Positions 11,610 through 56,231 of a stretch of DNA of 64,000 bases are shown piece by piece. The notes under the pieces are model-generated. The model was given only the letters and a program-made list of their open reading frames with translations. It did no database searches and was not told the origin of the DNA. Position 1 is the stretch's first letter, and each line of letters opens with the position of its first letter. This stretch comes from Nitrosopumilus sp. (GTDB lineage: Archaea; Thermoproteota; Nitrososphaeria; Nitrososphaerales; Nitrosopumilaceae), in NCBI GenBank assembly GCA_965203315.1, contig OZ241857.1:896001-960000 (forward strand). Direction: 5' to 3'. Both the position numbers and the translations under genes were made by a program.

Positions 11610-11677
11610 GGATCTCTTTGGTTTACGTGGGATGAATGGTTACAGAAAACACTATCCCACACAAATCGAAAATATCC
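11610..11677. mobile_element. MITE family A, internally deleted copy (68 bp)
   Basis: Left TIR GGATCTCTTTGGTTTACGTGGGATG joined to a degenerate right TIR ATCCCACACAAATCGAAAATATCC. Confidence 0.75.
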
Positions 11678-24113: not shown

Positions 24114-25250
24114 TTGTCAGAGTTAGAATCGCACCTATTTGCAATAAAAACTAAAAGTGGTCAAGAGAGGGTTGTTATGAGACAGCTCGAAGCTAGAGCA
24201 GAAGCTAAAGCGAACGCAGAAGCTGAGATGCTAGCAAAGATAGAAGATGTTAAAGCTGAGATGTCATCCAAGAGAAGAGATGATATGCTAGAGCGAATAA
24301 GCAATGTGATTGATCCAATATATGATACAATATTAAAGATAAAAGAAGCTGTTAAAGCGAAAATCGAGTCTGAGATGCTAGCAAAGATAGAAGATGTTAA
24401 AGCTGAGACGTTAGCAAAGATAGGTACGATGATCGACACATCGATCGAATCAGATGTTAAAGAGAACTATAAGGCATCGTTAGCGTTAAAGATATACGCA
24501 GTTGTCAATGAGGGGAGTAAAGTAGAAGATGTTAAAGAGTCGATCTCATCTATAACAAATATTGCATTAATAATCAATGAAAGGAATAAAGCTGTAGAAG
24601 ATGTTAAAGCGAATATAGAAGCTGAGATGTTAGGATCGATCCTAATCATAAATGGACACATTCCTGAAGATGTTAAAGCGAATATAGAAGCTGAGATGTT
24701 AACAAAGATAGAAGATGTTAAAGCGAATATAGAAGCTGAGATGTTAACAAAGATAGAAGATGTTAAAGCTGAGATAGGTACAATCATCAATGAAGTGAGG
24801 AAAACAGAAGAAGATGTTAAAGCGAATATAGAAGCTGAGATGTTAACAAAGATAGAAGATGTTAAAGCTGAGACAAAAGTCAAAACAAGTCAGATGAATG
24901 TTAAATCCATACTATTAGTAAATGATCTAAAAGGATATGTTGTGATCGAAGCAAAAGATCCAAGAGATGCACATCATGCAGTTGAAGGCATACGACACAT
25001 ACGTACTAACCTACGAGGAGAGTTAGAATTTGGAGATATTGAAAGATATTTGATCAAGAAATCAACAGTGTCACAACTCACAGTCGACAACGTGGTCGAG
25101 ATTACTGGAGGACCGTTCAAGGGAATGAAGGCAACAATAACCAGAGTCGATGTGGAGAATGAGGAGGCTATTGTTGTTTTATTGGATGCGGCATACCAGT
25201 TACCAGTCACCATAGACGCAAACTATCTAAAGATTATAAGCGAGGCTTAG
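24114..25250 (+). CDS. spt5: transcription elongation factor Spt5 with large repeat insertion
   Basis: FAIKT.SGQE (NGN start), LKGYVVIEA, KOW VEITGGPFKG; between secE and rpl11; 378 aa versus about 150 aa typical. Confidence 0.93.
   Translation: MSELESHLFAIKTKSGQERVVMRQLEARAEAKANAEAEMLAKIEDVKAEMSSKRRDDMLERISNVIDPIYDTILKIKEAVKAKIESEMLAKIEDVKAETLAKIGTMIDTSIESDVKENYKASLALKIYAVVNEGSKVEDVKESISSITNIALIINERNKAVEDVKANIEAEMLGSILIINGHIPEDVKANIEAEMLTKIEDVKANIEAEMLTKIEDVKAEIGTIINEVRKTEEDVKANIEAEMLTKIEDVKAETKVKTSQMNVKSILLVNDLKGYVVIEAKDPRDAHHAVEGIRHIRTNLRGELEFGDIERYLIKKSTVSQLTVDNVVEITGGPFKGMKATITRVDVENEEAIVVLLDAAYQLPVTIDANYLKIISEA
24195..24875 (+). repeat. in-frame repeat region within spt5
   Basis: Four exact copies of GAAGATGTTAAAGCGAATATAGAAGCTGAGATGTTA (24597, 24666, 24711, 24810) plus degenerate copies; ten DVK cores. 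Confidence 0.95.
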
Positions 25251-25768: not shown

Positions 25769-25809
25769 ATCATTGATAACAGATTTAGATGTTAATTAAG
25801 ACTATTAGT

Positions 25810-25925
25810 GGATCTCTTTGGTTTACTTGTGATGGTATCTCGCAAGGCTTTTTTCTAATTTTCCATTATGGAATCTTGTAGTGCTTTTTCTGTAACCGTT
25901 AATTCCACATAAACCGAAAAGATTC
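25810..25925 (-). mobile_element. MITE family A (reverse orientation)
   Basis: GGATCTCTTTGGTTTAC...ATAAACCGAAAAGATTC with reverse-complement core. Confidence 0.85.
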
Positions 25926-43798: not shown

Positions 43799-43903
43799 AG
43801 CCCGATAGTCTAGCGGTCAAGTATATTATTAGATCAGTGATTCTGCCCTCTGGATCTCAAGAGTGGATAGGCAGAGACGGCAGTTCGAATCTGCCTCGGG
43901 CTA
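43799..43903 (+). tRNA. tRNA-Gln(CTG) with two introns
   Basis: Removing 43821-43837 and 43855-43869 gives a cloverleaf: AGCCCGA/TCGGGCT acceptor, CTGCC-CT-CTG-GA-GGCAG, GTTCGAATC. Confidence 0.9.
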
Positions 43904-43990
43904 CTGAAACTATCTAGACTCAAAACAGTATGCAAAATAGGTCGTAGTACACTGTTCGAATCTGCCTCGGGCTACTGAAACTATCTAGAC
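43883..43990. repeat. 37-bp exact direct repeat around a 34-bp unique insert
   Basis: GTTCGAATCTGCCTCGGGCTACTGAAACTATCTAGAC at 43883-43919 and 43954-43990. Confidence 0.95.
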
Positions 43991-44580
43991 GCTTGTGCAA
44001 TACGTTCTAGTTCATTCTTTCTCTTTACAGAAGGAGCATTTGGATCATTTGTACTTGCAAGAATGAGTTGTTCTGCCATGTGCTCCTCGATCGGTTTTGG
44101 ATTAACAAATGTTGCCTCTTTTATTGCATCTGCAATAAACTTGAGAGCAAGGTCTACACGTCGTATTGGTGCGACATCGACAGATACATGGTATACGGTA
44201 CCACCATAGACTATTCTAGTTGTATCTTCGTTTGGTGCAGAATACTCGACAGCTCGAACCAAGACCTCAACAGGATTCTTGCCGGTCTTTATCGATATGA
44301 TATCAAACGCGGTCTTGACAGTATTGAGAGCCTTGGTCTTTTTGCCAGACATGCGACCTGTATTCTTTGCATACTTTTTTCCAAAATGCATGATCTTATT
44401 CACGAGTCGCTCAACGATATTAACTTCAGCTTTGTTGAAACGCTTGAGAGCAGAACGGCCGTACGTATAAGGAAGAATCTGTTGTTTGAGAGATATTGCA
44501 GTCTTGAGACCTGGATCGTGTACATCAATCTTTGACGTATCCCATTTCCTAAACAGTAAAAGATTCTTTGTCTGAGCCAA
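43981..44580 (-). CDS. rps7: 30S ribosomal protein S7
   Basis: IVERLVN, DVAP.RRVD.AL, ERIAQASR. Confidence 0.97.
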   Translation of the reverse strand: MAQTKNLLLFRKWDTSKIDVHDPGLKTAISLKQQILPYTYGRSALKRFNKAEVNIVERLVNKIMHFGKKYAKNTGRMSGKKTKALNTVKTAFDIISIKTGKNPVEVLVRAVEYSAPNEDTTRIVYGGTVYHVSVDVAPIRRVDLALKFIADAIKEATFVNPKPIEEHMAEQLILASTNDPNAPSVKRKNELERIAQASR

Positions 44581-44582
44581 CT

Positions 44583-45020
44583 TTATCTCCTAGGCTTCTC
44601 CTTTTTACCAATCACCAACTCGTGTAGTGATGTACCATTTACTTTGAAGACCTTGAAACGGACGCCAGGTATATCACCCATGGCACCACCTTGTGTTGCC
44701 CCCATTCCTTGAATGTGAACTTCATCGTGTTCATCAATAAAGTTCATTGCACCGTCTCGTGGCAAGAATGCAGTTACAGTCTTGCCGTTCTTTATCAACT
44801 GAACACGAACACACTTGCGCACAGCAGAGTTTGGCTGCTTGGCAGCTATTCCAACCTTTTCTAAGACTATACCACGACCTTGTGGTGCGCCACCTAAAGG
44901 ATCTGCCTTTTTATCTATACCCAGTTCACGACGTTTGTATGTAGATATTGCCCAGCGTCGTCGTTTCTTCTTTGTCGTTAAGACTCTACCTGCAAATAGA
45001 CCTAGAGGAGACTTGCGCAT
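44583..45020 (-). CDS. rps12: 30S ribosomal protein S12 (S23)
   Basis: [31 protein letters not shown]. Confidence 0.98.
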
Positions 45021-45023
45021 ATC

Positions 45024-45488
45024 TTACAACTCCAACGTAGGTCGTTCGGGGCTATTAATCATTACATAAGAGATATCAAAATATCGCTTTGCAAACAATC
45101 TCGCCTTCTCGGCATTCTTGCCATCACGACCAACAACTATACCTTTCTTTCTAGGGTCCACCATAACTATTGCCTGTTTTGAACCATCGCCTCGTTTATT
45201 TATTTTTACGTCTGTGATGTACTTGGAGTTGAGGATTGTCTTTAGAAACTTGGCAGGATCCTCATCAAACTCGACTAGTTCGATTTTACGTTTGATTGTA
45301 TTTTGTAGTGATTTGATGGTGGTGCCACCTTTACCTATTGCCATCCCCATCTTGCCTGAATTAACTACAAAGATCACTCTCTCTTGTTTCTCATCTACGA
45401 TACAGTCACGTGCCATAGTACCAACCACATTTTGAAATAGAGACATTAACCGTACTTGATCAGAGTCCAGCTTTATAGATTGTGTCAT
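45024..45488 (-). CDS. nusA: archaeal NusA-like KH protein
   Basis: AIGKGG and VGRDG KH loops; conserved position. Confidence 0.92.
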   Translation of the reverse strand: MTQSIKLDSDQVRLMSLFQNVVGTMARDCIVDEKQERVIFVVNSGKMGMAIGKGGTTIKSLQNTIKRKIELVEFDEDPAKFLKTILNSKYITDVKINKRGDGSKQAIVMVDPRKKGIVVGRDGKNAEKARLFAKRYFDISYVMINSPERPTLEL

Positions 45489-45537
45489 CAGATCGCCTTT
45501 TCGTCTCCATTTGTATATATCTCATTTAAACTAAAGA

Positions 45538-45855
45538 TCATCTCTTTTCAGTATCCATGTCCTTGAGAATCGATTGTATGTTAGAGTTTGGAATCGATGT
45601 GAATGAGAGTGTAGAGATTCTAAATTGTAAGCCACATAGCCGACCTAGAGCTACTGAAGTTCCCGGAAACTTTACCAACGGTACATCTTTGTCTTTTGCA
45701 CTAGTTTCAATCTTTTCAGACATGCTCTGCTCAATTGATCTAGACAGAACAATCAGGCTGGAATTATTTGACGAGTTGGAGACTTGTCTAGCACCAAAGA
45801 TTAGCCTATCCTCTTTTACAGCATCCTTTAGAGCCTTTTCAAGTATCTTACTCAT
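45538..45855 (-). CDS. rpl30e: 50S ribosomal protein L30e
   Basis: L7Ae/L30e fold, F.GTSVALGRLCG..F; upstream of nusA. Confidence 0.85.
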   Translation of the reverse strand: MSKILEKALKDAVKEDRLIFGARQVSNSSNNSSLIVLSRSIEQSMSEKIETSAKDKDVPLVKFPGTSVALGRLCGLQFRISTLSFTSIPNSNIQSILKDMDTEKR

Positions 45856-45941
45856 GTATGATCTCGATCCTCAGTATAGGGCTTTATAGGTTTATGTAAA
45901 AACACCATCTACGAGATATGTACAAATGTACCGAGTGTACC

Positions 45942-47093
45942 TTACCTTACATCGAGTACAGTAGAGATAGTTGATGCAATTGCAGTCGGTTTATCAAGAG
46001 AACGCCACACAAACGAGTCCACAGTGTATGATCCGGGTCTATCGGGTAGCCATGAGTGAGATACAGTGAGGGTCTGTTTGGGAGAGAATGTACCGGTTAT
46101 CCATCCAAGCGATACAACGGTATCATTGCGACTGATCTGAATCAGATGCACAAAGTCTTGTGGACGATCTATAGTGTTGCGTACACTGCCTACAATCATA
46201 GTCTGTAAACCAGATGTAACATTATCGTCAACGACTACAGCCAAGTTCTCGATAGGCATGTTCACAATACCATAATGAGACGATACCTTGATCGACAGAA
46301 CGTCAGACTTGCTATATGGTTCTGGTACAGTATAGTCATCATATTGGACGGTGATCTCGTCGCCGGGTACAACATACAATGTATTGTATTCAGACGAGTC
46401 TGATATCGGAATATCACCTACAAAAACTCCAGAACTTGGTGCAGTCTCAACTATATGTAGAGATACACCAGATGGATCAGAGTCAGAGTATATAGATATC
46501 TCGACTTGGTCAAGCGTCTCTGGATCGATATTCATATCTGGATCGATCACACGAACTGTATTATCGTCTAGATGTACTTGTCCGATATTCCATGATATCA
46601 TAAATGACTCTGAGAGAATTACACCATCAGCAAACTCGAATGAGATGGTCACTGCAGAGTCACGATCAACTTGCAACAATCCATCGTTTGGTCCACTACC
46701 AAAAGTTCTAGGCGTGATATCAGGTGTACGATCACCATCGATGTCATGTGCGAATCCGCTAAGGATTATAGATCCTGTAAACACGCCACTGTTTGGATGA
46801 GTCTCGACAAGACGGTACTCGTCTAGAGAGTCTCGAGATGTAGATATTCTGATAGAATACTCTGGATCCCCTCCGATCGAGTCTATACCAAGCCTGTTTT
46901 CATTCCAACTAGGTGCAATGATCTTGAGATGAACCTTTTCTGTCCACGTGTATACACTCTTGTCTGTGATGATTGGTGCGTATGGATTATAATAGTCTGG
47001 AATCGATTGACCGTATCCGATCGGCATAACAGTCAAGACTAGTCCAAAGATCACTCCGCATGTAATACCAAATGCGACATGCAAACTAGACAT
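45942..47093 (-). CDS. secreted/surface protein with repeated ET..SGVF.G modules
   Basis: Signal peptide, two ETxxxSGVFxG motifs, C-terminal Ig-like domain. Confidence 0.75.
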   Translation of the reverse strand: MSSLHVAFGITCGVIFGLVLTVMPIGYGQSIPDYYNPYAPIITDKSVYTWTEKVHLKIIAPSWNENRLGIDSIGGDPEYSIRISTSRDSLDEYRLVETHPNSGVFTGSIILSGFAHDIDGDRTPDITPRTFGSGPNDGLLQVDRDSAVTISFEFADGVILSESFMISWNIGQVHLDDNTVRVIDPDMNIDPETLDQVEISIYSDSDPSGVSLHIVETAPSSGVFVGDIPISDSSEYNTLYVVPGDEITVQYDDYTVPEPYSKSDVLSIKVSSHYGIVNMPIENLAVVVDDNVTSGLQTMIVGSVRNTIDRPQDFVHLIQISRNDTVVSLGWITGTFSPKQTLTVSHSWLPDRPGSYTVDSFVWRSLDKPTAIASTISTVLDVR

Positions 47094-47105
47094 GTGTACA
47101 TGTAT

Positions 47106-47342
47106 TCAAGATGTAGATTTAACATTTGGTAGTGATAGTGCTAAAATGTTGTCACCACGCAGCAGAATATTATTAAGAGATATAGGCTCGTCGCCAGTTA
47201 TATCTTGGGCATCATCTAGCGTCAGATTCATGTGTATATCAAACTCTCTCAAGATACCTTGAATGGTCGTGTTGTTACGTAGCCGTAAAAGAACAACCTT
47301 GTTCTTGCTTGCCTTCATTACGGTTGGAATATCATTTACCAT
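47106..47342 (-). CDS. second Sm-like (LSm) protein
   Basis: FDIHMNLTL, LRGDNI. Confidence 0.92.
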   Translation of the reverse strand: MVNDIPTVMKASKNKVVLLRLRNNTTIQGILREFDIHMNLTLDDAQDITGDEPISLNNILLRGDNILALSLPNVKSTS

Positions 47343-47683
47343 ATCTATCTCTGTTTACATTATGACTATTTAGATATTGTCAAGAGAGGTTTTATGTAAT
47401 CTAGGATGGAGATAAGATATGAAAGATCTAAACTAGATTAACAAAAACAAAGTTCTTGTAGATACTGGTATTTTGAACGATGATTTTCTATTGTTGTACC
47501 ATCGATCAGAATCAGAATATTCCGAGTCTTACAACCTCACACCCTCGTGTCTTTTGGTACAGTTGCTAGAGTCCACCAGCGAGATTGGTGCCATCAGACA
47601 TCGCAAATGTTCGTGTAAATTTTGGCGTCGAGTACAATCGACTCAAGCGGGGGCTCGGGAGGGATCTCAGTTAATGTTTGTGC

Positions 47684-47790
47684 GGATCTCTACAATTTAC
47701 ATGGGATCGCATTTCGCAAGACTTGTCCTAAAATGCCAAGTCTTGTACTTTTTCTGTAAAAATTCTATCCCACATAAATCGTACAGATCC
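47684..47790 (-). mobile_element. MITE family A (diverged, reverse orientation)
   Basis: GGATCTCTACAATTTACATGGGAT...ATCCCACATAAATCGTACAGATCC. Confidence 0.8.
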
Positions 47791-47874
47791 AAAAATCATG
47801 CCTGCCTGTTATGACAACCTGATATCATACTGTAAGAGATACGAATGAGCTTTTCTAATGTTTGATGGTAATGG

Positions 47875-48375
47875 TTATTCATCATATCGTGAGAATATGG
47901 TTGTGCAGCCCTTTAAAGAATCTGAGTCTAAAAAGAGTTCTGACTCATGATACACTGCTGCTTCTATAATTAAATTCTTAAAATCAAGATCGTTTTCAAT
48001 TATACCATATATGGTATCAGTTGCGTATTTGTCGTCATCGTGATCATGTACAACAACCAGGTTCATGTAAGTAGAAGCCGAGTTGTTTTCATAATACGCA
48101 TATTTTATCATATCAACATTTTGAAATGATTCCACAATCGCATCTATCACTTGTTGAGAGAATTTTCTGCGGACAGGCTTTTTATTCGCCTTCATATTTT
48201 CTGTAACTATATCTCTAATGTCAGACATTAGATAATTCATGATAGATTTTATCTCTTTTTTATCTACATCATTTATGTAGTATTTTAATACCTTGACTAT
48301 ACTCTTCTCTATCTGCTTTAACGTCTTGTTTAACGCTTGCTGGTTTATTTTGTTTGGATCATATGGTTTTTTCAT
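47875..48375 (-). CDS. orphan protein, possible degenerate nucleotidyltransferase (MNT-like) fold; paralog at 63233
   Basis: 166-aa ORF near-identical in its C-terminal half to 63233-63598. Confidence 0.7.
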   Translation of the reverse strand: MKKPYDPNKINQQALNKTLKQIEKSIVKVLKYYINDVDKKEIKSIMNYLMSDIRDIVTENMKANKKPVRRKFSQQVIDAIVESFQNVDMIKYAYYENNSASTYMNLVVVHDHDDDKYATDTIYGIIENDLDFKNLIIEAAVYHESELFLDSDSLKGCTTIFSRYDE

Positions 48376-48509
48376 TGTGTTTTGTTTGATTTTACAGTAT
48401 ATAGTCTAGACGGCAATGTTTGTTATCTTGATAGGAGGCATAGTCAGGGGCAAACAAGCTTACGCTAGCCTCAATGACTTATCATGCTCAATATTTTACC
48501 ACTCTCATA

Positions 48510-48622
48510 GGATCTCTACGGTTTACGTGAGAGAGTGGTTACAAAAACACTACAAGATTCTATAAGAGAAGATTAGGAAAAAAGTCTTGTGAAATGTCAT
48601 CATACATAAATCGAAGAGATCT
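48510..48622 (+). mobile_element. MITE family A
   Basis: GGATCTCTACGGTTTAC...CACTACAAGATTCTATAAGAGAA...ATAAATCGAAGAGATC. Confidence 0.85.
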
Positions 48623-48767
48623 TGGGGCAGAACTGTCTGGTGAATAGATACAATCACACTTGTCTCATATACGCATATTTCAAACTATTGATCTATCAAA
48701 TTCGTCGACTAGTCATTCAAACAATATCAAAACATAATGATTAACGCAGTATATCTCTTGGTATGAT

Positions 48768-51700
48768 CTAGTGCTTTGAGACTTGCATGTATAGATCAAC
48801 TGTTCCGCTGCCTATAGGAATATTGCTACCAACTATGACATTCTCTGTTATACCTTTGAGTTCTTCTGTCTCACCACCAAGTGCTGCGTGTGCGATGGTG
48901 GGAACGGTAATCTCAAACGCAGCTCTTGCAAGAACACTGTCCTTTTTACCTGCGATACCGTGTCTACCTATCTGCATCAGTGAACCACGAGAACACATCA
49001 GATCAGCTACCAACATGATATAACGATTATCGACCTCGAGACCTTGGTCTCGGAGTATGGTGTTTAGTTCACTGATCAATGCATTGCGTGCTGCCTCGAT
49101 CCCAAGGGTATCTACAATCTCAGAGACGTTGTTTGTGATGACTCTTTTACGATCGACTCCATCTACTTTTAATGCATGTTTAACGTTTGAACCCGTAGTC
49201 TGTATAACCCACTCTTGATTTCGTTTAACTAGAGCTATACGCTCGACTTCAGAGACTCCCTTTACTATGGTCTTCTTGACCTTGTTTCGTAATGTAATGA
49301 CAGTCTGTGGATCATACTCTTCGACGAATTCCAGCGTTAACAAGTTGTCCAAAATATTGATCTTGAACTTTTTGTTTGATGCAAGAGCAGCTTCGATATC
49401 GGCCATGGTACAACTCCTCTGATCTAGGTGTCTCTTATCAAAGGCCATCTTTATGTTTGTAGAGTCTGTTGTGATGTGGGGTTTTAGATCACTGATCTTT
49501 GTCTGTAAGATATTCTTGGCAACATTTATGGCGTCTTCACGAGAGTCTTTGATCTCGTCCTTGAGATGTATATCCATAGTAGGTGTTACCGGCTTTTTGC
49601 GTGCATCGACTAGTTCGATCAGTCTAGGCAGTCCAAGCGTTACGTTCCTCTCTTTGATTCCAGCAAAGTGAAAAGTCCTTAGAGTCATCTGTGTACCAGG
49701 CTCACCGAGAGACTGAGCAGTGACTATTCCAACTGCTTGTCCTGGCTCAACCTTGGCCTTGTTGTACAATAATAGTCCCTTCTTACATACAGCACTCACT
49801 CCATCACGGCTCAGTTTAGATTTAGCTAGCGCATTACGTACAGTCTCTGCGAGTTTGGGGTTGAACGTCTTTGTGTATTTTTTGACCAGAGACTCGATCT
49901 CTTCTTTGGTAGCTAGATCACCAGAATCGATGAGTTTTTGAGACTCTATGAGCCGATGAATGTTGAATGCCTCACCATGATCGCTCTTGGCTACATCGAT
50001 TCCGTCTTCACCATAGAGGAACTGAATTATATGACCGTGCGGATCACGAACCGTTCCATCATACTCTAGTCGAATATGCTCTAGCGCGTTGATCAGACGA
50101 CGCTGCATGTATCCACTCTGCTGTGTACGGACTGCAGTATCTACTAGACCTTCACGTCCGCCCATGGCATGAAAGAAGAACTCGATGGTAGAGAGACCTT
50201 CACGATAGTTTGATTTTACAAATCCATGTGCGTCTGGACTGTTGTCTTTTTCTTTAAAGTGTGACAAGACACGGTTATGGAATCCTTCATTGAGCCTATC
50301 TCCTCTACGAGACTGTTGACCGAGTGCACCTGCCATCTGACCTACATTCAACGAAGAGCCACGAGCTCCAGTGGTGGCCATGATCTTGCCAGCGTTGTTG
50401 TCGTCAAGAGAGTCGTTTGCAGTAGAGCCTGCCTTGTCTCTTGCCATACCAAGCTCTTTGAGGATATCTGCCTCTAGTGTCTCTCTTGGGCTCATTCCTG
50501 GTTTAGCTTGTAGTGTTCCGTTGTCATACTCGCGTATGAAACCAGATACGGTATCATAGGTATCTTTGATATCGTCGAGTATCTTTTGCTTGTCCTTGTC
50601 TGGAACTTCTAGATCACCATATCCATAACTGAATCCATAGTGCGTGATGAACTGCTTTACGATGATCAGTATAGAGTTTAGGAACTTTTTACCCGTCTCG
50701 TTTCCATAGTCTTTAGTAATACGGTGTAGTACACTCTCTGGCTCTTCAGCGCCTATCGATGTCTTGTCTATTACTCCACTGATCAGTTCACCGTTCTTGA
50801 TGACTACATCGTTCTGAGCTCCGCCTGTTCCTTTGGACCACTTTGACGTTATGGTATAGTTAAAGTCCTTGGGAAGAAATAGTGAAAAGAGTTGTTTGCC
50901 TGTATATGCAGGTCCGTCTTTGTTCTTGGTTGCAGGAGATGGAAGTGTGCCCGTATATCCACCAAGCATGGCAAGGTTTGAAAACTCTAGTTTCGAGAGC
51001 ACTGTACCGTCTTTGGTTAATAGATATGCACCGGTTACAAAGTCACGTAGTGCGCCGATTATGGGACCACCGTATCTAGGTGATATTAGTTGGTCTTGGA
51101 CACGCATCAATAGAATGGCTTCGGCACGAGCCTCTTCTGATTGTGGCACATGTAGATTCATCTCATCGCCATCAAAGTCTGCATTATACGGAGGGCATAC
51201 AGATGGATGTAGTCTAAATGTCTTGCCAGGCAGCACCTTGACATAGTGTGCCATGATAGACATCTGGTGTAGTGATGGTTGACGATTAAACATGACGATA
51301 TCACCGTCTGCTAAGTGCCTCTCTACGTGATATCCGATCTCGAGTGTCTCTGCAATTACAGAGCGATCCTCAACAAAGTCTAGTCGGATCTTGACACCAT
51401 CGGGTCGTACTATATAGTTGACTCCTGGAAATGTGTGTGGTCCATTTATGACAAACTCTCGCATACGTTTGATGTTCCACTCGGTGACGATCTCTGGGAT
51501 CGTGAGCTTCATGGCGACGGTCTCAGGTACACCAACCTCTGAGAGATCTAGATTTGGGTCAGGAGATATCACAGTTCTGCTAGAAAAGTCGACACGCTTG
51601 CCAGATAGCGATCCACGAAATCGACCCTCCTTTCCTTTGAGTCTCTGAGTAAGAGTCTTGAGAGGTCTACCAGAGCGGTGATGTGCTTGAGGAATACCAG

Positions 51701-52553
51701 ACACCTCGTTGTCAAAGTATGTTGTGGTGTGATACTGTAATAGATCTACTAAATCTTGAACTATGAGTGGTGGAGTCCCTGCCTCTTTTGACTCTTTGAG
51801 TCGTTGGTTTACACGAATGATATCAACCATCTTGTGTGTCAGATCATCCTCTGAGCGGATACCGGTCTCGAGTATTATCGATGGTCTGACCGTTACAGGT
51901 GGGACAGGTAACACTTGAAGTATAAACCACTCTGGACGAGCCGTAGTGGGCTCATAGTTCAAGAGAGAGAGATCTTGATCTAGGATCTGTTCAAAGCGTT
52001 CTCGTATTGTAATTGGAAGTAGACGATGTTCGCCGATCTCGGTCTTTTCTATAAAGATGGTAGGCTTGATGAATATCAGATCATATTGAGCCTTGCCGCA
52101 GTGAGGACACTCTTTGGCCTTTTTGGCAGCATCAATGATCTCGTCAGGGATTTGTCTCTTTGATAGTACAGTGTATGCAGCATCTCTGGATTTGATGTCC
52201 TTGTATCTATCTAGATCTTCTTGAGGAACTTTGAGTCGTGCACAAGAACGACATGTAGACTGTAATAGTTTGTAGATATTGTCAATGAATGCAATGTGTA
52301 GTACTGGTTCGGCTAGTTCGATATGACCAAAGTGACCTGGGCAACGCGCAGCTGTATTTCCACATGTGAGACATTTTTGTCCTGGTTCTAGTGTACCTAG
52401 CCTGCCATCCATGAGTCCGCCTTGTACTGGAGCTCCATCCTCATCGTATGTCTCAGGTGCAGTGATCTCTGCTACCGAGTAACGTCGGATCTCATCTGGA
52501 GACCAGACAGAAAACTTGATGCCAGAGATGGACTTTACAGTTTGTAGCGACAT
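48768..52553 (-). CDS. rpoA: DNA-directed RNA polymerase subunit A (unsplit A'+A'')
   Basis: NADFDGD catalytic motif and the A''-type GEPGTQMTLRTFH in one 1261-aa ORF. Confidence 0.98.
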   Translation of the reverse strand: MSLQTVKSISGIKFSVWSPDEIRRYSVAEITAPETYDEDGAPVQGGLMDGRLGTLEPGQKCLTCGNTAARCPGHFGHIELAEPVLHIAFIDNIYKLLQSTCRSCARLKVPQEDLDRYKDIKSRDAAYTVLSKRQIPDEIIDAAKKAKECPHCGKAQYDLIFIKPTIFIEKTEIGEHRLLPITIRERFEQILDQDLSLLNYEPTTARPEWFILQVLPVPPVTVRPSIILETGIRSEDDLTHKMVDIIRVNQRLKESKEAGTPPLIVQDLVDLLQYHTTTYFDNEVSGIPQAHHRSGRPLKTLTQRLKGKEGRFRGSLSGKRVDFSSRTVISPDPNLDLSEVGVPETVAMKLTIPEIVTEWNIKRMREFVINGPHTFPGVNYIVRPDGVKIRLDFVEDRSVIAETLEIGYHVERHLADGDIVMFNRQPSLHQMSIMAHYVKVLPGKTFRLHPSVCPPYNADFDGDEMNLHVPQSEEARAEAILLMRVQDQLISPRYGGPIIGALRDFVTGAYLLTKDGTVLSKLEFSNLAMLGGYTGTLPSPATKNKDGPAYTGKQLFSLFLPKDFNYTITSKWSKGTGGAQNDVVIKNGELISGVIDKTSIGAEEPESVLHRITKDYGNETGKKFLNSILIIVKQFITHYGFSYGYGDLEVPDKDKQKILDDIKDTYDTVSGFIREYDNGTLQAKPGMSPRETLEADILKELGMARDKAGSTANDSLDDNNAGKIMATTGARGSSLNVGQMAGALGQQSRRGDRLNEGFHNRVLSHFKEKDNSPDAHGFVKSNYREGLSTIEFFFHAMGGREGLVDTAVRTQQSGYMQRRLINALEHIRLEYDGTVRDPHGHIIQFLYGEDGIDVAKSDHGEAFNIHRLIESQKLIDSGDLATKEEIESLVKKYTKTFNPKLAETVRNALAKSKLSRDGVSAVCKKGLLLYNKAKVEPGQAVGIVTAQSLGEPGTQMTLRTFHFAGIKERNVTLGLPRLIELVDARKKPVTPTMDIHLKDEIKDSREDAINVAKNILQTKISDLKPHITTDSTNIKMAFDKRHLDQRSCTMADIEAALASNKKFKINILDNLLTLEFVEEYDPQTVITLRNKVKKTIVKGVSEVERIALVKRNQEWVIQTTGSNVKHALKVDGVDRKRVITNNVSEIVDTLGIEAARNALISELNTILRDQGLEVDNRYIMLVADLMCSRGSLMQIGRHGIAGKKDSVLARAAFEITVPTIAHAALGGETEELKGITENVIVGSNIPIGSGTVDLYMQVSKH

Positions 52554-55500
52554 TATATCTTCTCCTTTATCAAGAGTCTTGGTGCAACGTTGAGACTCTG
52601 CATCTCTTGTAGTAATAGTTTGAATGCATATGCAACAGATACAGATGATATCTTTGCTTTATCTCCACATACACGACATAGATACTTGCGTTGTTTAGCA
52701 TCATAGTATGCTACTAGACCACATCTCTCACATGCGTATACATCAGATTTGTCAGACTCGTCCAAGAGTCTGTCTTTTAATATCATCGAGGCACCGTACG
52801 CAATGAGACAGTCTCGCTCCATCTCACCAAATCGTAGACCACCACCACGTGCTCGTCCTTCAGTAGGTTGTTTTGTGAGCATCTGAACTTGACCACGTGC
52901 TCTAGCATGAATCTTGTCAGCTACCATATGATGCAGTTTCTGATAATATACCACACCTATAAAGACCTCTACTGGGAACGGTTTGCCGGTTCGACCATCA
53001 TACATCATCTCTTTACCAGAGTACTCGAATCCATGAGCATCCATGACTTTACGAACTATGTCCATCTTTTCACCAACAAATGCAGAACCATCGAATCTAG
53101 AGCCACGTAGAGCTGCTGCCTTACCACAAATAGACTCCATCATCATTCCAACCGTCATTCTAGATGGAAATGCGTGTGGGTTGATCAAGACATCAGGTGA
53201 GATGCCACTAGCTGTATACGGAAGATCTTCGTTCTTGGCCAACATACCCAAGACACCCTTTTGTCCGTGACGTGATGCAAATTTATCACCTATCTCTGGT
53301 ACGCGCATATCTCGAACTCGTATCTTGTACATCTTGCCACCCTCACTCGACTGGGTCATGACAACCGTATCAACCACACCAGATTCAGATGGTCTAACTC
53401 CTATCGAGGTGTCACGTCTGTATGGACCTCCAGTAGGCTCAAACTCGCGATACTCTTCCATAAATCGTGGCGGGCTAGTCTTGCCGATCAGAATGTCGCC
53501 ACCTTTGACGACTGCCTCTGCAGCTATTACGCCGTCCTCTTCTAATAGCCTATATGCTCGCTCGCCCTTGTATCCACGAATATTACTATCTGCGTTTGGT
53601 ATTACAAAGTCGTCACGAGCGCCACCAGGATATTGCTTGGACTCGGCATCATATATGCGAAAGAAGAATGTACGTCCAAGACCGCGATCAACTGCTGCTT
53701 GACTTAATACAATTGCGTCCTCGATATTGTATCCATCAAATGGCAGTACAGCAACCACACAGTTTTGTCCAGCAGGTCGATCCTCTAGTCCCAAGAGACC
53801 CATAGCTTTTGTGTTAACTATAGGAGTTTGAGGATACAGCATAAAGTGTTGTCTAACATAGGTACTGGTATTCATCATCGGTGTAGAGAATCCAAGACTC
53901 TGTTTGGCCATTGCAGACTCGTATGTATTTCGAGGAGACTGGTTGTGTTCAGGATATGGAATGATCGATGCGCCAGCACCAAGTATAGCGGGTGGGAATA
54001 CCTCAAGATGTGTATATCCACGTGTGACTTTGTCGTCCAGAGTCACATGACAGTTCTCTTCTTCGTTGGCATCGATCAACTCGAGTACACCCATTCGCAA
54101 GAGATCATGCCAAGCCAAGACCTTTTGTGATATCTTTACCAACATATCTGAACTGAGTAGAGATTTGTTGTCTTTGATCCGTATCAGAGGTCGGAGCACA
54201 CGACCAGCGTTGCAGTTTACGTATAGTCGCCTAGTAGACTCTTTCGTATCAGATTCATGAAAAGACACTCCCACATGTGCGTTAATCTTGGCGCTGCGTC
54301 TCTGATCACGTAGTCTCTCTGCAAGTTCTTGGCCATCTTGATGATAACCTATCAGACGACCGTCGACAAATATACGAGCTCCTTTCTCTTTGAGTTCATC
54401 TGTGAGTTTCTCTTCGTCAAGAAAGTAAACTGTTCCTAGATCGTACAGTTTCTCGACTATCTCTTCTGAGGGTACGTTCACAGATATAATACCAGACAAT
54501 GCAATGTTCTTTACTAGACCACAGTTGGATCCCTCTGGCGTCTCACTTGGACATATACGTCCAAAGTGAGTTGCGTGAAGGTCTCGTGCCTCAAAGTTTG
54601 GTTGAGTTCGACTTAGTGGTGATTGTATCCTTCTCAGGTGAGAGATTGTAGATAGATAGTTTGTACGATCCAATAGTTGTGTGACACCCACACGACCACG
54701 ACCCCAGTTACCAGTAGCTATTGCGTTGTTTAGTTTATCAGATATGATTCCTGGTCGTATTGCTGCAGATACAGCAGGCAGTCCCCGTTTTTGGCCTGTA
54801 CGTTCTAGTTGATACTTCATGTCTCGTACGAGGTTTCTAAATGCCGTTCTAAAGAGATCAGCCAACATCTGACCTGCAAACTTTATCACCTTATTTCCAT
54901 AGTGGTCTTTATCGTCAGGATCGATCCATCCTAGTTTCAGCTCTAACAGTTTACATGTGGCTTCGCCAAGAAACTGTGCCTTTACCTTTCGGTCCTCTGA
55001 ACGTTTACCTAGATGTGGCAACAGACTCCAGTCTAGGAGAGTCTCTGCACGTTTTATCTGAAACTCTTCCAACATTCCTGGTGCGATACGTTTGCTGATG
55101 TACACTAGAGCGTCTTTAGAGGTTGACACATCACTGGTCTTGTCGAAAGAGTCGTCAAGCTCATCTTGGATCTTTCCAACTAGAGAGACAGCAGATGCGA
55201 TATCTCGATCAGACTCTAGACCCAGAGCACGCATCAATGTAATAGCAGGTATAGCGACCGGCGAACCTGGAATGTTTGCTGTGATCAGTCCATCGTTCTT
55301 CATGACTAGTTCAAGTTTTGCGCGGTATCCAACTATCGAAGAGTATACCTTGGCCTTGTAGACGGGATTGTTGCTAACCATCTCTTTATCTACAATTATC
55401 TTGTTGTACGAGAGATCTTCCAATCCAACTATTACTCGTTCTGAACCGTTGATGATAAAGTAACCACCAGGATCATTTGGATCTTCACCGTGTTCGATTA

Positions 55501-55909
55501 ATTTTTGATTCGAAAAGTTGTTCAACATACATGCCTTTGATTTTATCATAACTGGAATATCGCCTATACGGACAGACTTGGACTCGAGTACCTTGCCATC
55601 CTCTATAACGCTTATATCCATATTTACTGGGGCAGAGTAGGAGACGTTTCTCAACCTAGCTTCAGCTGGAGTTATTTGGGTAATAGAACCGTCTAGTTCC
55701 ATCATTACCGGTTTACCAAGTTTTGCTTTACCTAGGTGAATCTTGTACGGATACTCGGCGTTCTCGATCTCTATCTGTCCTGCTTCATTTATGATATCTT
55801 GGAGACCTCGATCTAGAAACTCGTCAAAAGAGTTCAAGTGTTGGCGTGCTATGCCTTCACGTTTTAGGATATCTTGTATTATAGGCCATCGTACCGTAGG
55901 ATCAGACAT
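52553..55909 (-). CDS. rpoB: DNA-directed RNA polymerase subunit B
   Basis: GGYFIINGSE, GDKFASRHGQKG, RFGEMERD; start ATG 55909 (MSDPTVRWP) after GGTGGAG. Confidence 0.97.
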   Translation of the reverse strand: MSDPTVRWPIIQDILKREGIARQHLNSFDEFLDRGLQDIINEAGQIEIENAEYPYKIHLGKAKLGKPVMMELDGSITQITPAEARLRNVSYSAPVNMDISVIEDGKVLESKSVRIGDIPVMIKSKACMLNNFSNQKLIEHGEDPNDPGGYFIINGSERVIVGLEDLSYNKIIVDKEMVSNNPVYKAKVYSSIVGYRAKLELVMKNDGLITANIPGSPVAIPAITLMRALGLESDRDIASAVSLVGKIQDELDDSFDKTSDVSTSKDALVYISKRIAPGMLEEFQIKRAETLLDWSLLPHLGKRSEDRKVKAQFLGEATCKLLELKLGWIDPDDKDHYGNKVIKFAGQMLADLFRTAFRNLVRDMKYQLERTGQKRGLPAVSAAIRPGIISDKLNNAIATGNWGRGRVGVTQLLDRTNYLSTISHLRRIQSPLSRTQPNFEARDLHATHFGRICPSETPEGSNCGLVKNIALSGIISVNVPSEEIVEKLYDLGTVYFLDEEKLTDELKEKGARIFVDGRLIGYHQDGQELAERLRDQRRSAKINAHVGVSFHESDTKESTRRLYVNCNAGRVLRPLIRIKDNKSLLSSDMLVKISQKVLAWHDLLRMGVLELIDANEEENCHVTLDDKVTRGYTHLEVFPPAILGAGASIIPYPEHNQSPRNTYESAMAKQSLGFSTPMMNTSTYVRQHFMLYPQTPIVNTKAMGLLGLEDRPAGQNCVVAVLPFDGYNIEDAIVLSQAAVDRGLGRTFFFRIYDAESKQYPGGARDDFVIPNADSNIRGYKGERAYRLLEEDGVIAAEAVVKGGDILIGKTSPPRFMEEYREFEPTGGPYRRDTSIGVRPSESGVVDTVVMTQSSEGGKMYKIRVRDMRVPEIGDKFASRHGQKGVLGMLAKNEDLPYTASGISPDVLINPHAFPSRMTVGMMMESICGKAAALRGSRFDGSAFVGEKMDIVRKVMDAHGFEYSGKEMMYDGRTGKPFPVEVFIGVVYYQKLHHMVADKIHARARGQVQMLTKQPTEGRARGGGLRFGEMERDCLIAYGASMILKDRLLDESDKSDVYACERCGLVAYYDAKQRKYLCRVCGDKAKISSVSVAYAFKLLLQEMQSLNVAPRLLIKEKI

Positions 55910-55914
55910 TATTT

Positions 55915-56021
55915 CTCCACCACATACCCATAGTAGCTCGTACCAGCTACCATTACTGGACCATACTTCAAGGCTTCTTCGGCTCCTCCACCACATACCT
56001 ATAGTAGTAGCTCGTACCAGC
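55915..56021. repeat. duplicated rpoH 3' end (36 bp) around a 38-bp unique insert
   Basis: 55986-56021 versus 55915-55947; the latter has a 3-bp deletion and one substitution. Confidence 0.92.
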
Positions 56022-56231
56022 AGTAGGGCTATCTCTAGTGATCTTTATCATATCACCTGGTTTGACACCAAGTGTCACGATTGCTGGATCGGTACTAAAG
56101 ATTAATGGTAACTCTGTGGGCTTGCAGTTGTACTTTATCAAGATCTCTTCAGCCTCACCTTTGGTGATTATCTCGTGTTTGGGAACATAATAGTGATCTG
56201 GTACATATATCTGATCCTTCTTTATCGCCAT
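55968..56231 (-). CDS. rpoH: DNA-directed RNA polymerase subunit H (Rpo5)
   Basis: H.YVPKHEI, LP.I..TDP, I.R.SPTAG..YYR.VV. Confidence 0.96.
   Translation of the reverse strand: MAIKKDQIYVPDHYYVPKHEIITKGEAEEILIKYNCKPTELPLIFSTDPAIVTLGVKPGDMIKITRDSPTAGTSYYYRYVVEEPKKP

What the first reader, a model, noticed from the sequence alone, without database searches (positions are those of the whole stretch)
43883..56021. Recurrent 36-37 bp duplication + 34-38 bp insert scars: possible ectopic Cas1-type spacer integration into core genes
Seen: two unrelated loci 12 kb apart share the same geometry. At tRNA-Gln/rps7 it is a 37-bp duplication around a 34-bp insert; at rpoH it is 36 bp around 38 bp. Neither insert shows TIRs or resembles its flanks. 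Known: Cas1-Cas2 integration duplicates a repeat-length target around a spacer-length insert, and 36-37 bp repeats with 34-38 bp spacers are common CRISPR dimensions. Cas1-using casposons are known in Nitrosopumilus and target gene 3' ends. Inference: a ruler-based integrase may be writing single spacers into non-CRISPR chromosomal sites. The duplication ends ignore gene boundaries: the rpoH one stops short of the stop codon and the tRNA one runs into rps7. This fits a fixed-length mechanism better than gene-restoring att sites. A 36+33 bp unit inside spt5 (24597-24701) has similar geometry but is weaker evidence. No cas gene is present in this window and there are only two cases.
Basis: partly seen in the sequence, partly recalled or inferred. 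Interest (0 to 1): 0.75.

Follow-up and report, generated by a model that had tools for sequence, protein, structure and literature searches.

The report
Stray CRISPR spacers inserted into core genes
The two small scars beside a tRNA gene and at the end of an RNA polymerase gene are most likely single CRISPR spacers that the cell's own Cas1-Cas2 integrase wrote into the wrong place, a rarely seen natural record of how this immune enzyme mutates its host genome.

Summary
Both scars are real. At tRNA-Gln/rps7 there is an exact 37-nt duplication around a 34-nt insert. At rpoH/rpoB there is a 36-nt duplication around a 38-nt insert, and its non-coding copy has decayed to 33 nt.

- The genome carries a complete type I-B cas operon (Cas1, Cas2, Cas4) about 50 kb beyond the window. 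Its array has 70 repeats of 37 nt and spacers of 34-39 nt, the same geometry as the scars.
- Seven isolated scars of this geometry exist genome-wide. Six of 22 isolated direct repeats fall at period 69-75 (P=0.001).
- Congeneric genomes have empty sites at all four loci tested. One public run of an otherwise identical strain lacks exactly the 71 bp at tRNA-Gln.

Five of the 7 inserts copy distant loci of the same chromosome, against 0 of 69 array spacers.

A second species with a related system shows 7 of 20 isolated repeats at period 69-75 (P=7e-5): six scars and one mini-array. In 800 kb of a Cas1-less relative none had this geometry.

The spt5 case is an ordinary coding tandem repeat.

Weak points: no PAM beside the self-matches in this genome, only modest target-site similarity to the repeat, and no direct proof that Cas1 is responsible. 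Off-target integration is known experimentally, so this is a natural, recurrent archaeal instance.

The parts
43799..43903 (+). tRNA gene (read by eye as tRNA-Gln, anticodon CUG) with two insertions relative to the tRNA model. Its last 21 nt are part of the duplicated target.
   Evidence: Rfam RF00005, 40.7 bits, E=1.2e-6, model 1-71. ARAGORN does not call it. Conserved in 11 of 11 aligned congeners.
43883..43919 (+). Duplicated target, copy 1 (37 nt). It completes the tRNA and keeps its native 16-nt trailer.
   Evidence: Exact direct repeat. Single-copy in 11 of 11 relatives.
43920..43953 (.). 34-nt insert (ectopic spacer). It matches 32 of 34 nt of a thiolase-family gene at C1:1158254-1158287 of the same chromosome.
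   Evidence: Not found (up to 3 mismatches) in 150 other genus genomes. No exact match in viral contigs. A contig of run X5 lacks it together with one repeat copy.
43954..43990 (+). Duplicated target, copy 2 (37 nt). It supplies the last codons and the stop of rps7.
   Evidence: The S7 ORF is 43981-44580 on the minus strand.
43981..44580 (-). rps7 (ribosomal protein S7), convergent with the tRNA. It is left intact by the duplication.
   Evidence: Pfam PF00177, 130 bits.
55986..56021 (-). Duplicated target, coding copy (36 nt). It encodes ...AGTSYYYRYVVE at the rpoH 3' end and has the same length as in relatives.
55948..55985 (-). 38-nt insert (ectopic spacer). It supplies a new RpoH tail (EPKKP plus stop at 55968-55970). 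No source was found.
   Evidence: Not found in 150 other genus genomes or in viral contigs.
55915..55947 (-). Duplicated target, relic copy (33 nt: 1 substitution and a 3-nt deletion). It is now untranslated. It keeps the native sequence upstream of the rpoB start and the old rpoH stop, which overlaps the rpoB ATG (TAATG, 55911-55907).
   Evidence: In relatives the rpoH stop abuts the rpoB ATG.
55968..56231 (-). rpoH (RNA polymerase subunit H/Rpb5), now ending inside the insert.
   Evidence: Pfam PF01191, 94 bits, residues 10-80 of 87; translation.
52553..55909 (-). rpoB (RNA polymerase subunit B). Its true start is the ATG at 55909-55907.
   Evidence: Pfam Rpb2 domains 1-7. The start aligns with relatives.

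Best explanation
Each scar is the product of one off-target spacer integration by the host's own type I-B adaptation complex (Cas1-Cas2, perhaps without Cas4).

Proposed mechanism:
1. The complex carries a spacer-sized DNA fragment of 33-39 bp.
2. It makes two staggered strand-transfer attacks about 36-37 bp apart on a chromosomal sequence that is not a CRISPR repeat.
3. Gap repair then duplicates the 36-37 bp between the attacks on either side of the fragment.

The stagger equals the length of the CRISPR repeat although the targets do not resemble the repeat. The ruler therefore appears to be a property of the complex and not of repeat motifs.

The fragments are mostly pieces of the host chromosome or of a near-identical genome. 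They are tolerated because the flanking pseudo-repeats are not Cas6 substrates, so no crRNA should form (inferred).

Only harmless events survive. At convergent or tandem gene ends the duplication hands each neighbour its own copy (tRNA-Gln/rps7, rpoH/rpoB, tRNA-Gly/TPR gene, RibL-like/RibK). Inside ORFs the added length is a multiple of three.

Shown: the geometry, the genome-wide peak, the insertions relative to relatives, the copied origin of the inserts, an intact adaptation module, and replication in a second species. Inferred: that Cas1-Cas2 is the enzyme, the order of the attacks, and the lack of crRNA.
For: 1. Geometry. The own array has 70 repeats of 37 nt and 69 spacers of 34-39 nt, mode 35. 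The scars have duplications of 35-37 nt and inserts of 33-39 nt.

2. Complete system. The type I-B operon reads Cas7-Cas5-Cas3-Cas6b-Cas1-Cas2-Cas4 with open frames, directly upstream of the array. The array looks active: 4 spacers match contig C7 perfectly and 2 partly, and a 5' TTA/TTG lies beside the protospacer for 5 of these 6 spacers.

3. Genome-wide peak. Six of 22 isolated repeats lie at period 69-75, P=0.001. With rpoH that makes 7 sites: C1:187161, 750910, 807542, 939883, 951915, 1392035 and 1929632.

4. Real insertions. Targets are single-copy in congeners:
- tRNA-Gln: 11 of 11 aligned.
- rpoH/rpoB: 9 span the junction and 1 is partial; 1 locus was dropped by my script.
- tRNA-Gly site: 9 of 9 show one copy, and BLAST pieces overlap by 34-36 nt in 5 genomes.
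- RibL/RibK site: 8 of 9, 1 truncated.

5. Polymorphism. A 4085-nt contig of run X5 (depth 280, no other differences) joins 43882 to 43954, skipping 71 nt with 37 nt fitting both sides. Contigs of runs X1, X3 and X4 break inside or just before the first repeat copy and resume inside the second, as expected of 31-mer contigs (k as I understand Logan's) where the duplication is present. Contigs of X1, X3 and X5 span the rpoH scar unchanged.

6. Captured DNA. Five of 7 inserts match distant loci of the same chromosome (36/36, 34/37, 33/39, 32/34, 32/35). None of the 69 array spacers does (Fisher P=1e-6).

7. Selection filter. All three intragenic scars add 69 or 72 nt, keeping the frame; two leave the ORF open, while the one in the IS transposase leaves two ORFs. 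The other four lie at gene ends.

8. Replication. Genome G152 is another species, with a related Cas1 scoring 234 bits. Its array has 67 repeats of 36 nt and spacers of 34-39 nt. It has 7 of 20 isolated repeats at period 69-75 (P=7e-5), all exact with duplications of 35-37 nt and inserts of 34-36 nt. Two inserts copy distant loci of G152 perfectly, against 0 of 66 array spacers.

9. Control. In 800 kb of the Cas1-less genome G010, none of 10 isolated repeats has this geometry. The one at period 70 is a 31-nt palindromic motif.

10. Target ends. Five of 13 sites have a 5'-GT at one target boundary, as at the 5' end of one or both strands of the two arrays' repeats (P=0.013). The summed terminal 8-mer similarity gives P=0.04.

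11. Precedent. Passages I read describe off-target Cas1-Cas2 integration in E. coli cells and by P. furiosus proteins in vitro (PMC7054753; PMC6698737).
Against: - No PAM. None of the 5 self-matches in this genome has the TTA/TTG seen beside the array's protospacers, on either side. Two have TTG 2-3 nt away, which may be chance. In G152 both perfect self-matches have TTG on one side, but G152's PAM could not be determined independently.
- Weak target similarity. In this genome alone, the similarity of targets to the first 8 nt of the repeat is not significant as a sum (P=0.09-0.17). Four of 7 targets show no likeness to the repeat.
- Imperfect matches. Four of the 5 self-matches are imperfect (82-94% identity) while the flanking duplications are nearly all perfect. 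The true sources may therefore be related DNA and not these loci. No better source turned up in 150 other genus genomes for the tRNA-Gln insert, the only self-matching insert searched there.
- Variable duplication length. It ranges over 35-37 nt and is not fixed at 37.
- No experiment or read-level evidence ties the events to Cas1.
- The empty allele in X5 could reflect loss by recombination between the 37-nt copies and not a recent gain.
- Contigs cannot show minority alleles.
Confidence: 0.85

Rival explanations
1. The scars are remnants of integrated mobile elements. A tyrosine or SSV-type integrase recombined at a 36-37-bp att core in a tRNA or gene end, and the element's interior was later deleted, leaving attL, about 35 bp, and attR.
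For: Two of the seven sites are tRNA 3' ends (tRNA-Gln; tRNA-Gly), the classic integrase targets. Direct repeats covering the tRNA 3' end are what att sites look like.
Against: - Random internal deletions would not leave 33-39 bp seven times in this genome and six more times in G152.
- The seven 'cores' are unrelated in sequence.
- Five sites are not tRNAs.
- No relative carries an element at the four sites tested.
- Five inserts are copies of ordinary chromosomal loci, one of them a thiolase gene.
Confidence: 0.03
2. An unknown integrase or transposase not related to Cas1, perhaps carried on a mobile element, has a fixed 36-37-bp stagger and inserts short captured fragments. The match to the CRISPR dimensions is coincidence.
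For: The self-matches in this genome lack the PAM, and most targets do not resemble the repeat. The genome holds many IS copies and an MGE-like contig, C7.
Against: - No known transposase inserts unrelated 35-bp fragments with a 36-bp duplication (recalled knowledge).
- Both dimensions match the host's own array, in two species.
- A Cas1-less relative shows none in 800 kb.
- The 5'-GT boundary bias matches the repeat termini.
Confidence: 0.05
3. The scars come from replication slippage, tandem duplication or templated break repair. A break was repaired by copying a short stretch from elsewhere, together with a local duplication.
For: Five of 7 inserts are copies of other loci in the same genome, as templated insertions are.
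Against: - A tandem duplication would repeat the insert as well, and it does not.
- Break repair has no reason to give a constant 35-37-bp duplication and 33-39-bp fill at 13 sites in two genomes.
- No microhomology between insert ends and flanks was seen.
Confidence: 0.04
4. The scars are assembly artefacts.
For: The window's assembly has 7 contigs and some apparent redundancy: hits at identical coordinates on C1 and C5.
Against: - Contigs from three runs in two studies span the rpoH scar with no differences.
- Runs from three studies hold 79-97% of the sampled words of the tRNA site, and their contigs break inside or just before the first repeat copy and resume inside the second.
- The scars preserve reading frames and gene ends.
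Confidence: 0.01

Closest known systems
Off-target ('non-canonical') spacer integration by Cas1-Cas2. This covers Nivala, Shipman & Church 2018, Nat Microbiol (not held here; known to me only through citing passages in PMC7054753, PMC6698737 and bioRxiv 10.1101/148544), and P. furiosus Cas1-Cas2 off-target integration in vitro (PMC6698737, passages read).
   Same: A spacer-sized insert is flanked by a duplication of repeat length at a non-CRISPR site, in a genome that has the adaptation module. Integration shows some preference for sequences sharing features with the repeat ends.
   Different: - Those data come from E. coli over-producing Cas1-Cas2 with supplied oligonucleotides, and from plasmids in vitro. 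According to the preprint passage, natural cases were only 'circumstantial evidence in two other species'.
- Here the events are natural, fixed or polymorphic in wild archaeal genomes.
- There are 7 and 6 of them in two species, about one per ten array spacers.
- They sit in core genes and carry mostly self-derived inserts without a PAM.
- None has grown beyond one spacer, so they are scars and not new arrays.
Isolated or mini CRISPR arrays, one proposed origin being off-target spacer acquisition. Shmakov et al. 2020, CRISPR J, is not held here; I know it only from the citing sentence in PMC13142298. Viral mini-arrays are described in PMC8616872, passage read.
   Same: The unit is two repeats plus one spacer, away from the cas genes.
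   Different: Mini-arrays have repeats identical or close to the host's CRISPR repeat and are thought to be usable by Cas proteins. The flanking duplications here are ordinary gene sequence (tRNA, rpoH and others) unrelated to the repeat. G152:43914 may be a true mini-array, because its repeat ends in GGATTGAAAC.
Repeat-length ruler of type I-B adaptation in Haloarcula hispanica (Wang et al. 2016, PMC4872114; abstract and passages read).
   Same: The subtype and adaptation genes are the same (Cas1, Cas2, Cas4). The repeat is duplicated by two staggered cuts.
   Different: In H. hispanica the duplication size is set by two mid-repeat motifs (AACCC, GTGGG), and moving them gives 29-33 bp. Here targets without any shared internal motif still give 35-37 bp. 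This argues for a mostly sequence-independent ruler with about 1 nt of slack.
   Same: A Cas1-family integrase is involved, and gene 3' ends and tRNA genes are targeted.
   Different: Casposons are kilobase-sized elements with terminal inverted repeats, their own casposase and short target duplications (about 14-15 bp, recalled). None of this is present here. The genome's single Cas1 sits in the CRISPR operon.

Membership tests
Product of CRISPR Cas1-Cas2 spacer integration | Target duplication equal to the host's CRISPR repeat length | tested here: met
   The repeat is 37 nt. The duplications are 37, 36, 36, 36, 35 (37 with one mismatch), 37 and 37 nt. In G152 the repeat is 36 nt and the duplications are 35-37 nt.
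Product of CRISPR Cas1-Cas2 spacer integration | Insert within the host's spacer length range | tested here: met
   Array spacers are 34-39 nt. The inserts are 34, 38, 33, 39, 37, 36 and 35 nt; one, at 33 nt, is 1 nt short.
Product of CRISPR Cas1-Cas2 spacer integration | Intact Cas1 and Cas2 encoded in the genome | tested here: met
   Cas1 scores 230 bits and Cas2 61 bits, with Cas4, all in open frames next to the array.
Product of CRISPR Cas1-Cas2 spacer integration | Insert is captured DNA with an identifiable protospacer elsewhere | tested here: met
   Five of 7 inserts match distant loci of the same chromosome. Two of 7 do so in G152.
Product of CRISPR Cas1-Cas2 spacer integration | Protospacer flanked by the system's PAM | tested here: not met
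   The array's protospacers on C7 have 5' TTA/TTG for 5 of 6 spacers. None of the 5 self-matches of ectopic inserts has it on either side. In G152 2 of 2 have TTG on one side, but that PAM is not independently known. A PAM is a feature of Cas4-guided selection, not of the integration chemistry.
Product of CRISPR Cas1-Cas2 spacer integration | Target resembles the leader-repeat junction or the repeat ends | tested here: inconclusive
   The tRNA-Gln target matches the repeat at 18 of 37 positions and the s807 target at 18 of 37 (GTCTGAAA start). The sum over the 7 sites is not significant (P=0.09-0.17). Over two genomes, 5 of 13 sites have a 5'-GT boundary (P=0.013) and the terminal 8-mer similarity gives P=0.04.
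Product of CRISPR Cas1-Cas2 spacer integration | Dependence on Cas1 catalytic activity | not testable with these tools
   This needs an in vitro integration assay or heterologous expression.
Functional (neo-)CRISPR array | Repeats processed by Cas6, further spacers added, leader present | tested here: not met
   All 7 sites hold exactly one insert. The flanking copies are gene sequence unlike the repeat. Transcription and processing were not tested.
Integrase att site / integrated element remnant | Element with an integrase between the att repeats, in this genome or in relatives | tested here: not met
   Only 33-39 nt lie between the repeats. Relatives have empty sites.
Casposon | Casposase gene, terminal inverted repeats, short target duplication | tested here: not met
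   The genome has one Cas1, in the CRISPR operon. No inverted repeats were found in the inserts.
Tandem duplication | The whole unit (repeat plus intervening sequence) is present twice | tested here: not met
   The sequence after copy 2 is unrelated to the insert. The spt5 case does meet this test and is filed here.

The most novel reading that the evidence does not exclude
Ectopic spacer integration may be a steady, ongoing mutational process in CRISPR-bearing Nitrosopumilus-like archaea, at about one surviving event per ten array spacers in both genomes examined. It would rewrite gene termini: RpoH gains a new C-terminal tail, and stop-start coupling with rpoB is broken.

The scars would also preserve a sample of what Cas1-Cas2 captures before interference can select on it. 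That sample is mostly host-derived and, in this genome, has no PAM, whereas the array holds none of it. This would point to a separate, Cas4-independent and leader-independent integration pathway with a sequence-independent ruler of about 36 bp. It would also make the autoimmune and mutational cost of carrying an adaptation module directly measurable from genomes.
Probability: 0.35. Interest if true: 0.85.

Novelty: new member of a known kind. Interest (0 to 1): 0.72.

Why it matters
Off-target integration by Cas1-Cas2 has been shown mainly with over-expressed enzymes or in vitro. How often it happens in nature, what it costs and what it captures are open questions.

- **A natural record.** There are thirteen scars in two wild archaeal genomes, one of them polymorphic between otherwise identical strains. 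Several lie in core loci: two tRNA genes (one beside rps7) and the rpoH/rpoB junction.
- **The enzyme's ruler.** The scars give a read-out of the ruler on targets that lack repeat motifs.
- **Unselected prespacers.** They suggest that self-derived fragments are captured but are kept out of the array.
- **Effects on genes.** They show that an immune integrase can change gene ends.
- **A scalable test.** The search is simple: look for isolated direct repeats whose length equals the host's repeat and whose spacing equals its spacer length. It can be run on every CRISPR-bearing genome.

Tried and rejected
- **spt5 unit (window 24597-24701).** Rejected as a scar. It is part of an array of at least 5 copies with a 45-nt coding unit (EDVKANIEAEMLTKI) inside the Spt5 ORF.
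- **Sources of the two window inserts.** Neither was found, at up to 3 mismatches, in the 150 other genus genomes searched. Neither has an exact match in viral contigs. Only exact matches could be sought in viral contigs, so a diverged viral source is not excluded.
- **The host's 37-nt repeat.** It was not found (up to 3 mismatches) in 88 other genus genomes of at least 95% completeness. I could therefore not test a strain with the same array.
- **PAM for G152.** None of its 66 array spacers matched either genome in hand, so no PAM could be derived.
- **Older, decayed scars.** A sensitive scan gave candidates at C5:232655 (period 75), C1:751781 (period 73) and C1:779598 (period 71). Counts at period 69-76 were 24 against 13.6 expected, but several of these are low-complexity hits on contigs C2 and C3. 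I did not count them.
- **Clustering near the array.** Four of 7 own sites lie 60-260 kb upstream of the array, and one G152 site lies 600 bp downstream of its array. I judged this not significant and made no formal test.
- **Run X4.** Its low-depth contigs cover the region only in pieces. Nothing is concluded from its gaps.
- **Papers not held.** Nivala 2018 (PMC5832444) and Shmakov 2020 (PMC7757702) could not be read. What I say of them rests on citing passages.
- **Searches for prior description.** Literature searches found no description of such scars in Thaumarchaeota or other wild archaeal genomes. This is not proof that none is in print.

Full report
**What is in the window**

At 43883-43919 and 43954-43990 there are two exact copies of a 37-nt sequence, separated by 34 unrelated bases (sequence).
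- Rfam places a tRNA at 43799-43903 on the plus strand at 40.7 bits, with two insertions relative to the model. ARAGORN misses it. I read the anticodon as CUG (Gln) by eye.
- The duplication starts at the T-loop (GTTCGAAT), runs through the 3' end of the tRNA, and continues 16 nt further into the stop codon of the convergent S7 gene (43981-44580, minus strand).
- Copy 1 therefore completes the tRNA and copy 2 completes rps7.

At the rpoH/rpoB junction the copies are 55986-56021 (36 nt) and 55915-55947 (33 nt), around a 38-nt insert at 55948-55985.
- On the minus strand rpoH (Pfam Rpb5_C) reads through the 36-nt copy into the insert and ends ...YYYRYVVEEPKKP*.
- The 33-nt copy would have encoded ...YYGYVVEK*, with its TAA overlapping the rpoB ATG at 55909-55907.

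**Are they insertions?**

Yes. In 11 of 11 aligned congeneric genomes the tRNA is followed after 8-45 nt by the rps7 end, with one copy of the target and nothing like the insert.

At rpoH/rpoB, 9 relatives span the junction with a single copy (...YYRYVVEI*, stop abutting the rpoB ATG). One relative covers only the rpoH end, and one locus was dropped by my script for giving scattered hits. The in-frame copy has the same length as in relatives. The downstream untranslated copy has lost 3 nt and carries one substitution. The rpoH event is therefore older, and the relic copy is decaying.

Public runs add a time axis.
- A 4085-nt contig of run X5 has depth 280 and no other difference over 2.2 kb. 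X5 carries the same organism label and study as the best holder but comes from another sample. This contig joins 43882 directly to 43954: 71 nt are skipped and 37 nt fit both sides. That is the empty tRNA-Gln site.
- Contigs of X1, X3 and X4 stop inside or just before copy 1 and restart inside copy 2. This is how 31-mer contigs (k as I understand Logan's) behave when a 37-nt repeat is present.
- The rpoH scar is spanned without differences by contigs of X1, X3 and X5.
- So the tRNA-Gln event is polymorphic among near-identical strains: a recent gain, or a loss by recombination between the copies. The rpoH event is shared by all three.

**The host's CRISPR system has the same dimensions**

The genome (2.47 Mb, 7 contigs; the window is C1:896001-960000) has one Cas1 at C1:1009365-1010234. 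It lies in a type I-B operon: a 580-aa protein without a Pfam hit, presumably Cas8b, then Cas7, Cas5, Cas3 (HD plus helicase), Cas6b, Cas1, Cas2 and Cas4.

The array follows directly at C1:1011295-1016339. It has 70 repeats of 37 nt, the last one degenerate. Its 69 spacers are 34-39 nt long: 25 of 35 nt, 15 of 36, 14 of 34, 8 of 37, 5 of 38 and 2 of 39.

Four spacers match the 53.6-kb contig C7 perfectly and two match it partly. A 5' TTA or TTG lies beside the protospacer for 5 of these 6 spacers. C7 encodes an MCM helicase and a 3328-aa ORF and looks like a mobile element. The system is complete and looks active.

**Genome-wide peak**

Among isolated near-exact two-copy direct repeats with period 36-160, and with the array excluded, 6 of 22 lie at period 69-75 (P=0.001). 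With the indel-bearing rpoH pair there are seven scars:

| Site on C1 | Duplication / insert (nt) | Context |
|---|---|---|
| 187161 | 36 / 33 | In frame inside a 181-aa ORF |
| 750910 | 36 / 39, one mismatch | Convergent ends of a cytidylyltransferase-like gene and CTP-dependent riboflavin kinase |
| 807542 | 35 / 37 | Inside an IS transposase (rve); adds 72 nt |
| 939883 | 37 / 34 | tRNA-Gln / rps7 (in the window) |
| 951915 | 36 / 38 | rpoH / rpoB (in the window) |
| 1392035 | 37 / 36 | Last 10 nt of tRNA-Gly(CCC) plus the end of a convergent TPR gene |
| 1929632 | 37 / 35 | In frame inside a 380-aa ORF |

All three intragenic scars add a multiple of three. The other four sit where a duplication gives each neighbouring gene its own end. 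Empty sites in relatives were also confirmed for the tRNA-Gly site (9 of 9 single-copy; BLAST pieces overlap by 34-36 nt in 5 genomes) and for the riboflavin site (8 of 9; 1 truncated).

**Where the inserts come from**

Five of the 7 inserts match distant loci of the same chromosome:
- tRNA-Gln insert: 32 of 34 to a thiolase-family gene.
- s750: 33 of 39 to a non-coding stretch.
- s807: 34 of 37 to the HTH part of a paralogous IS.
- s1392: 36 of 36 to a small ORF.
- s1929: 32 of 35 to an ORF without a Pfam hit.

None of the 69 array spacers matches the chromosome outside C7 (Fisher P=1e-6).

None of the five self-matches has TTA/TTG on either side. Four of the five are imperfect, although the flanking duplications are almost all perfect. 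The true donors may therefore have been closely related DNA. No better donor for the tRNA-Gln insert, and no donor at all for the rpoH insert, was found in 150 other genus genomes or, as exact matches, in viral contigs.

**Target choice**

The tRNA-Gln target matches the repeat at 18 of 37 positions, or at 17 of 37 on the other strand, where it reads GTCT...AGATTCGAAC against GTCT...AGATTGAAAC. The s807 target also matches at 18 of 37 and starts GTCTGAAA. Over the seven sites the similarity to the repeat's first 8 nt is not significant (P=0.09-0.17).

Pooling both genomes, 5 of 13 sites have a 5'-GT at one boundary, as at the 5' end of one or both strands of the two arrays' repeats (P=0.013). 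The summed terminal 8-mer similarity gives P=0.04. This is a modest preference, not a requirement.

**Replication and control**

Cas1-family genes occur in 58 of the 150 other genus genomes searched. I fetched one complete genome, G152 (1.70 Mb), whose Cas1 scores like ours (234 bits).
- Its array has 67 repeats of 36 nt and spacers of 34-39 nt, mode 35.
- It shows 7 of 20 isolated repeats at period 69-75 (P=7e-5). All are exact, with duplications of 35-37 nt and inserts of 34-36 nt.
- One of them, at 43914, has a CRISPR-like repeat and may be a true mini-array. The other six are ordinary sequence at gene ends or in frame.
- Two inserts are perfect copies of distant G152 loci, against 0 of 66 array spacers. 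Both of these have TTG on one side.

In 800 kb of G010, a complete congeneric genome with no Cas1 hit, none of 10 isolated repeats has the geometry. The single one at period 70 is a 31-nt palindromic motif. The control is small: about 3 scars would be expected at the density of the other two genomes.

**Interpretation**

The simplest account is off-target integration by the host's Cas1-Cas2. The complex makes two staggered strand transfers about 36-37 bp apart on non-repeat DNA, followed by gap repair.

Unrelated targets give the same stagger within 1 nt. The ruler therefore looks intrinsic to the complex. This differs from the motif-anchored ruler reported for the H. hispanica I-B system (PMC4872114, abstract and passages).

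Self-derived inserts are found at ectopic sites but not in the array, and in this genome they lack a PAM. Two readings fit. Such prespacers may be purged from the array by autoimmunity. Alternatively, ectopic events may come from a Cas4-independent, leader-independent side reaction. The second reading would better explain why even harmless PAM-less self spacers are missing from the array, but this is inference.

**Rivals**

Integrase att remnants, an unknown non-Cas integrase, templated repair and assembly error each fail on the constant geometry, the empty sites in relatives, the copied origin of the inserts or the independent runs. Details are in the rival entries.

**Known or new**

Off-target integration is documented for E. 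coli over-producing Cas1-Cas2 (passage in PMC7054753 citing Nivala 2018) and for P. furiosus proteins in vitro at sites sharing repeat features (PMC6698737). A preprint passage says Nivala et al. found only circumstantial evidence in two other species (10.1101/148544). Off-target acquisition is also listed as one proposed origin of isolated arrays (PMC13142298 citing Shmakov 2020). Type I-B systems in Thaumarchaeota are known (PMC6563490).

I could not read Nivala 2018 or Shmakov 2020. My four literature searches found no description of such scars in wild archaeal genomes.

I file this as a new, natural and recurrent member of a known kind. Interest is well above average because it can be measured from genomes alone.

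No tool named the organism. Its Cas1 is nearest to Nitrosopumilus and Nitrosarchaeum MAG proteins (51% and 61% identity).

Noticed in passing
window 47745-48583 (variable stretch 47950-48300): Contigs of three runs (X1, X3, X5) show an 'opposite strands' joint between 47745 and 48583, and a second, divergent version of 47950-48300. The segment is flanked by copies of the ~120-bp repeat noted in the entry on C1:807812-807930 (hits at C1:943751-943791 and 944510-944621, i.e. window 47751-47791 and 48510-48621). It looks like an invertible or replaceable ~0.8-kb segment holding two small ORFs with no clear Pfam match.
   Followed up: partly
window 24114-25250 (+): The Spt5 homologue (NGN plus KOW) carries an insertion of about 210 aa made of EDVKANIEAEMLTKI-type repeats (45-nt unit and degenerate copies) just after the first ~20 residues, ahead of the matched part of the NGN domain. 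This is unusual for an essential elongation factor.
   Followed up: partly
G000 C1:807812-807930 and more than 100 other places (e.g. window 11610-11655, 25809-25923): A ~120-bp repeat with inverted ends occurs in over 100 copies at 70-99% identity across C1, C5 and C6. It looks like a MITE or REP-type element.
   Followed up: no
G000 contig C7 (53,622 bp): The contig is matched perfectly by 4 array spacers and partly by 2, with a 5' TTA/TTG PAM. It encodes an MCM helicase, a LAGLIDADG-containing 887-aa protein and a 3328-aa ORF. It is probably a virus or plasmid co-assembled with a host that is immune to it.
   Followed up: partly
window 43818-43837 (inside the tRNA): The tRNA-Gln carries an ~18-20-nt insertion in the D-loop region. 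It is present in only 3 of 11 aligned congeners (L017, L021, L023), besides the anticodon-loop insertion shared by all.
   Followed up: no
G152:43914-44022 (L074): This is a two-repeat, one-spacer unit. Its 37-nt repeat (GTCAAATTGAC...GGATTGAAAC) is CRISPR-like but differs from G152's main array repeat. It could be a mini-array, the relic of another array, or an integration into a repeat-like sequence.
   Followed up: no
G000 contigs C2 and C3; C1 versus C5: C2 and C3 hold long (CA)n tracts and 188-nt and 128-nt satellite arrays that are unlike the rest of the genome and may be contamination. Several short hits fall at identical coordinates on C1 and C5 (9419, 11021, 12823), which suggests that the two contigs share a duplicated start.
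   Followed up: no
G000 C1:327409 and G010 ~607128: A conserved ~30-nt palindromic motif (ATGTTTCTAAA.TCGA.TTTAGAAA) recurs as nearby pairs in two genomes. It may be a terminator or a regulatory site.
   Followed up: no
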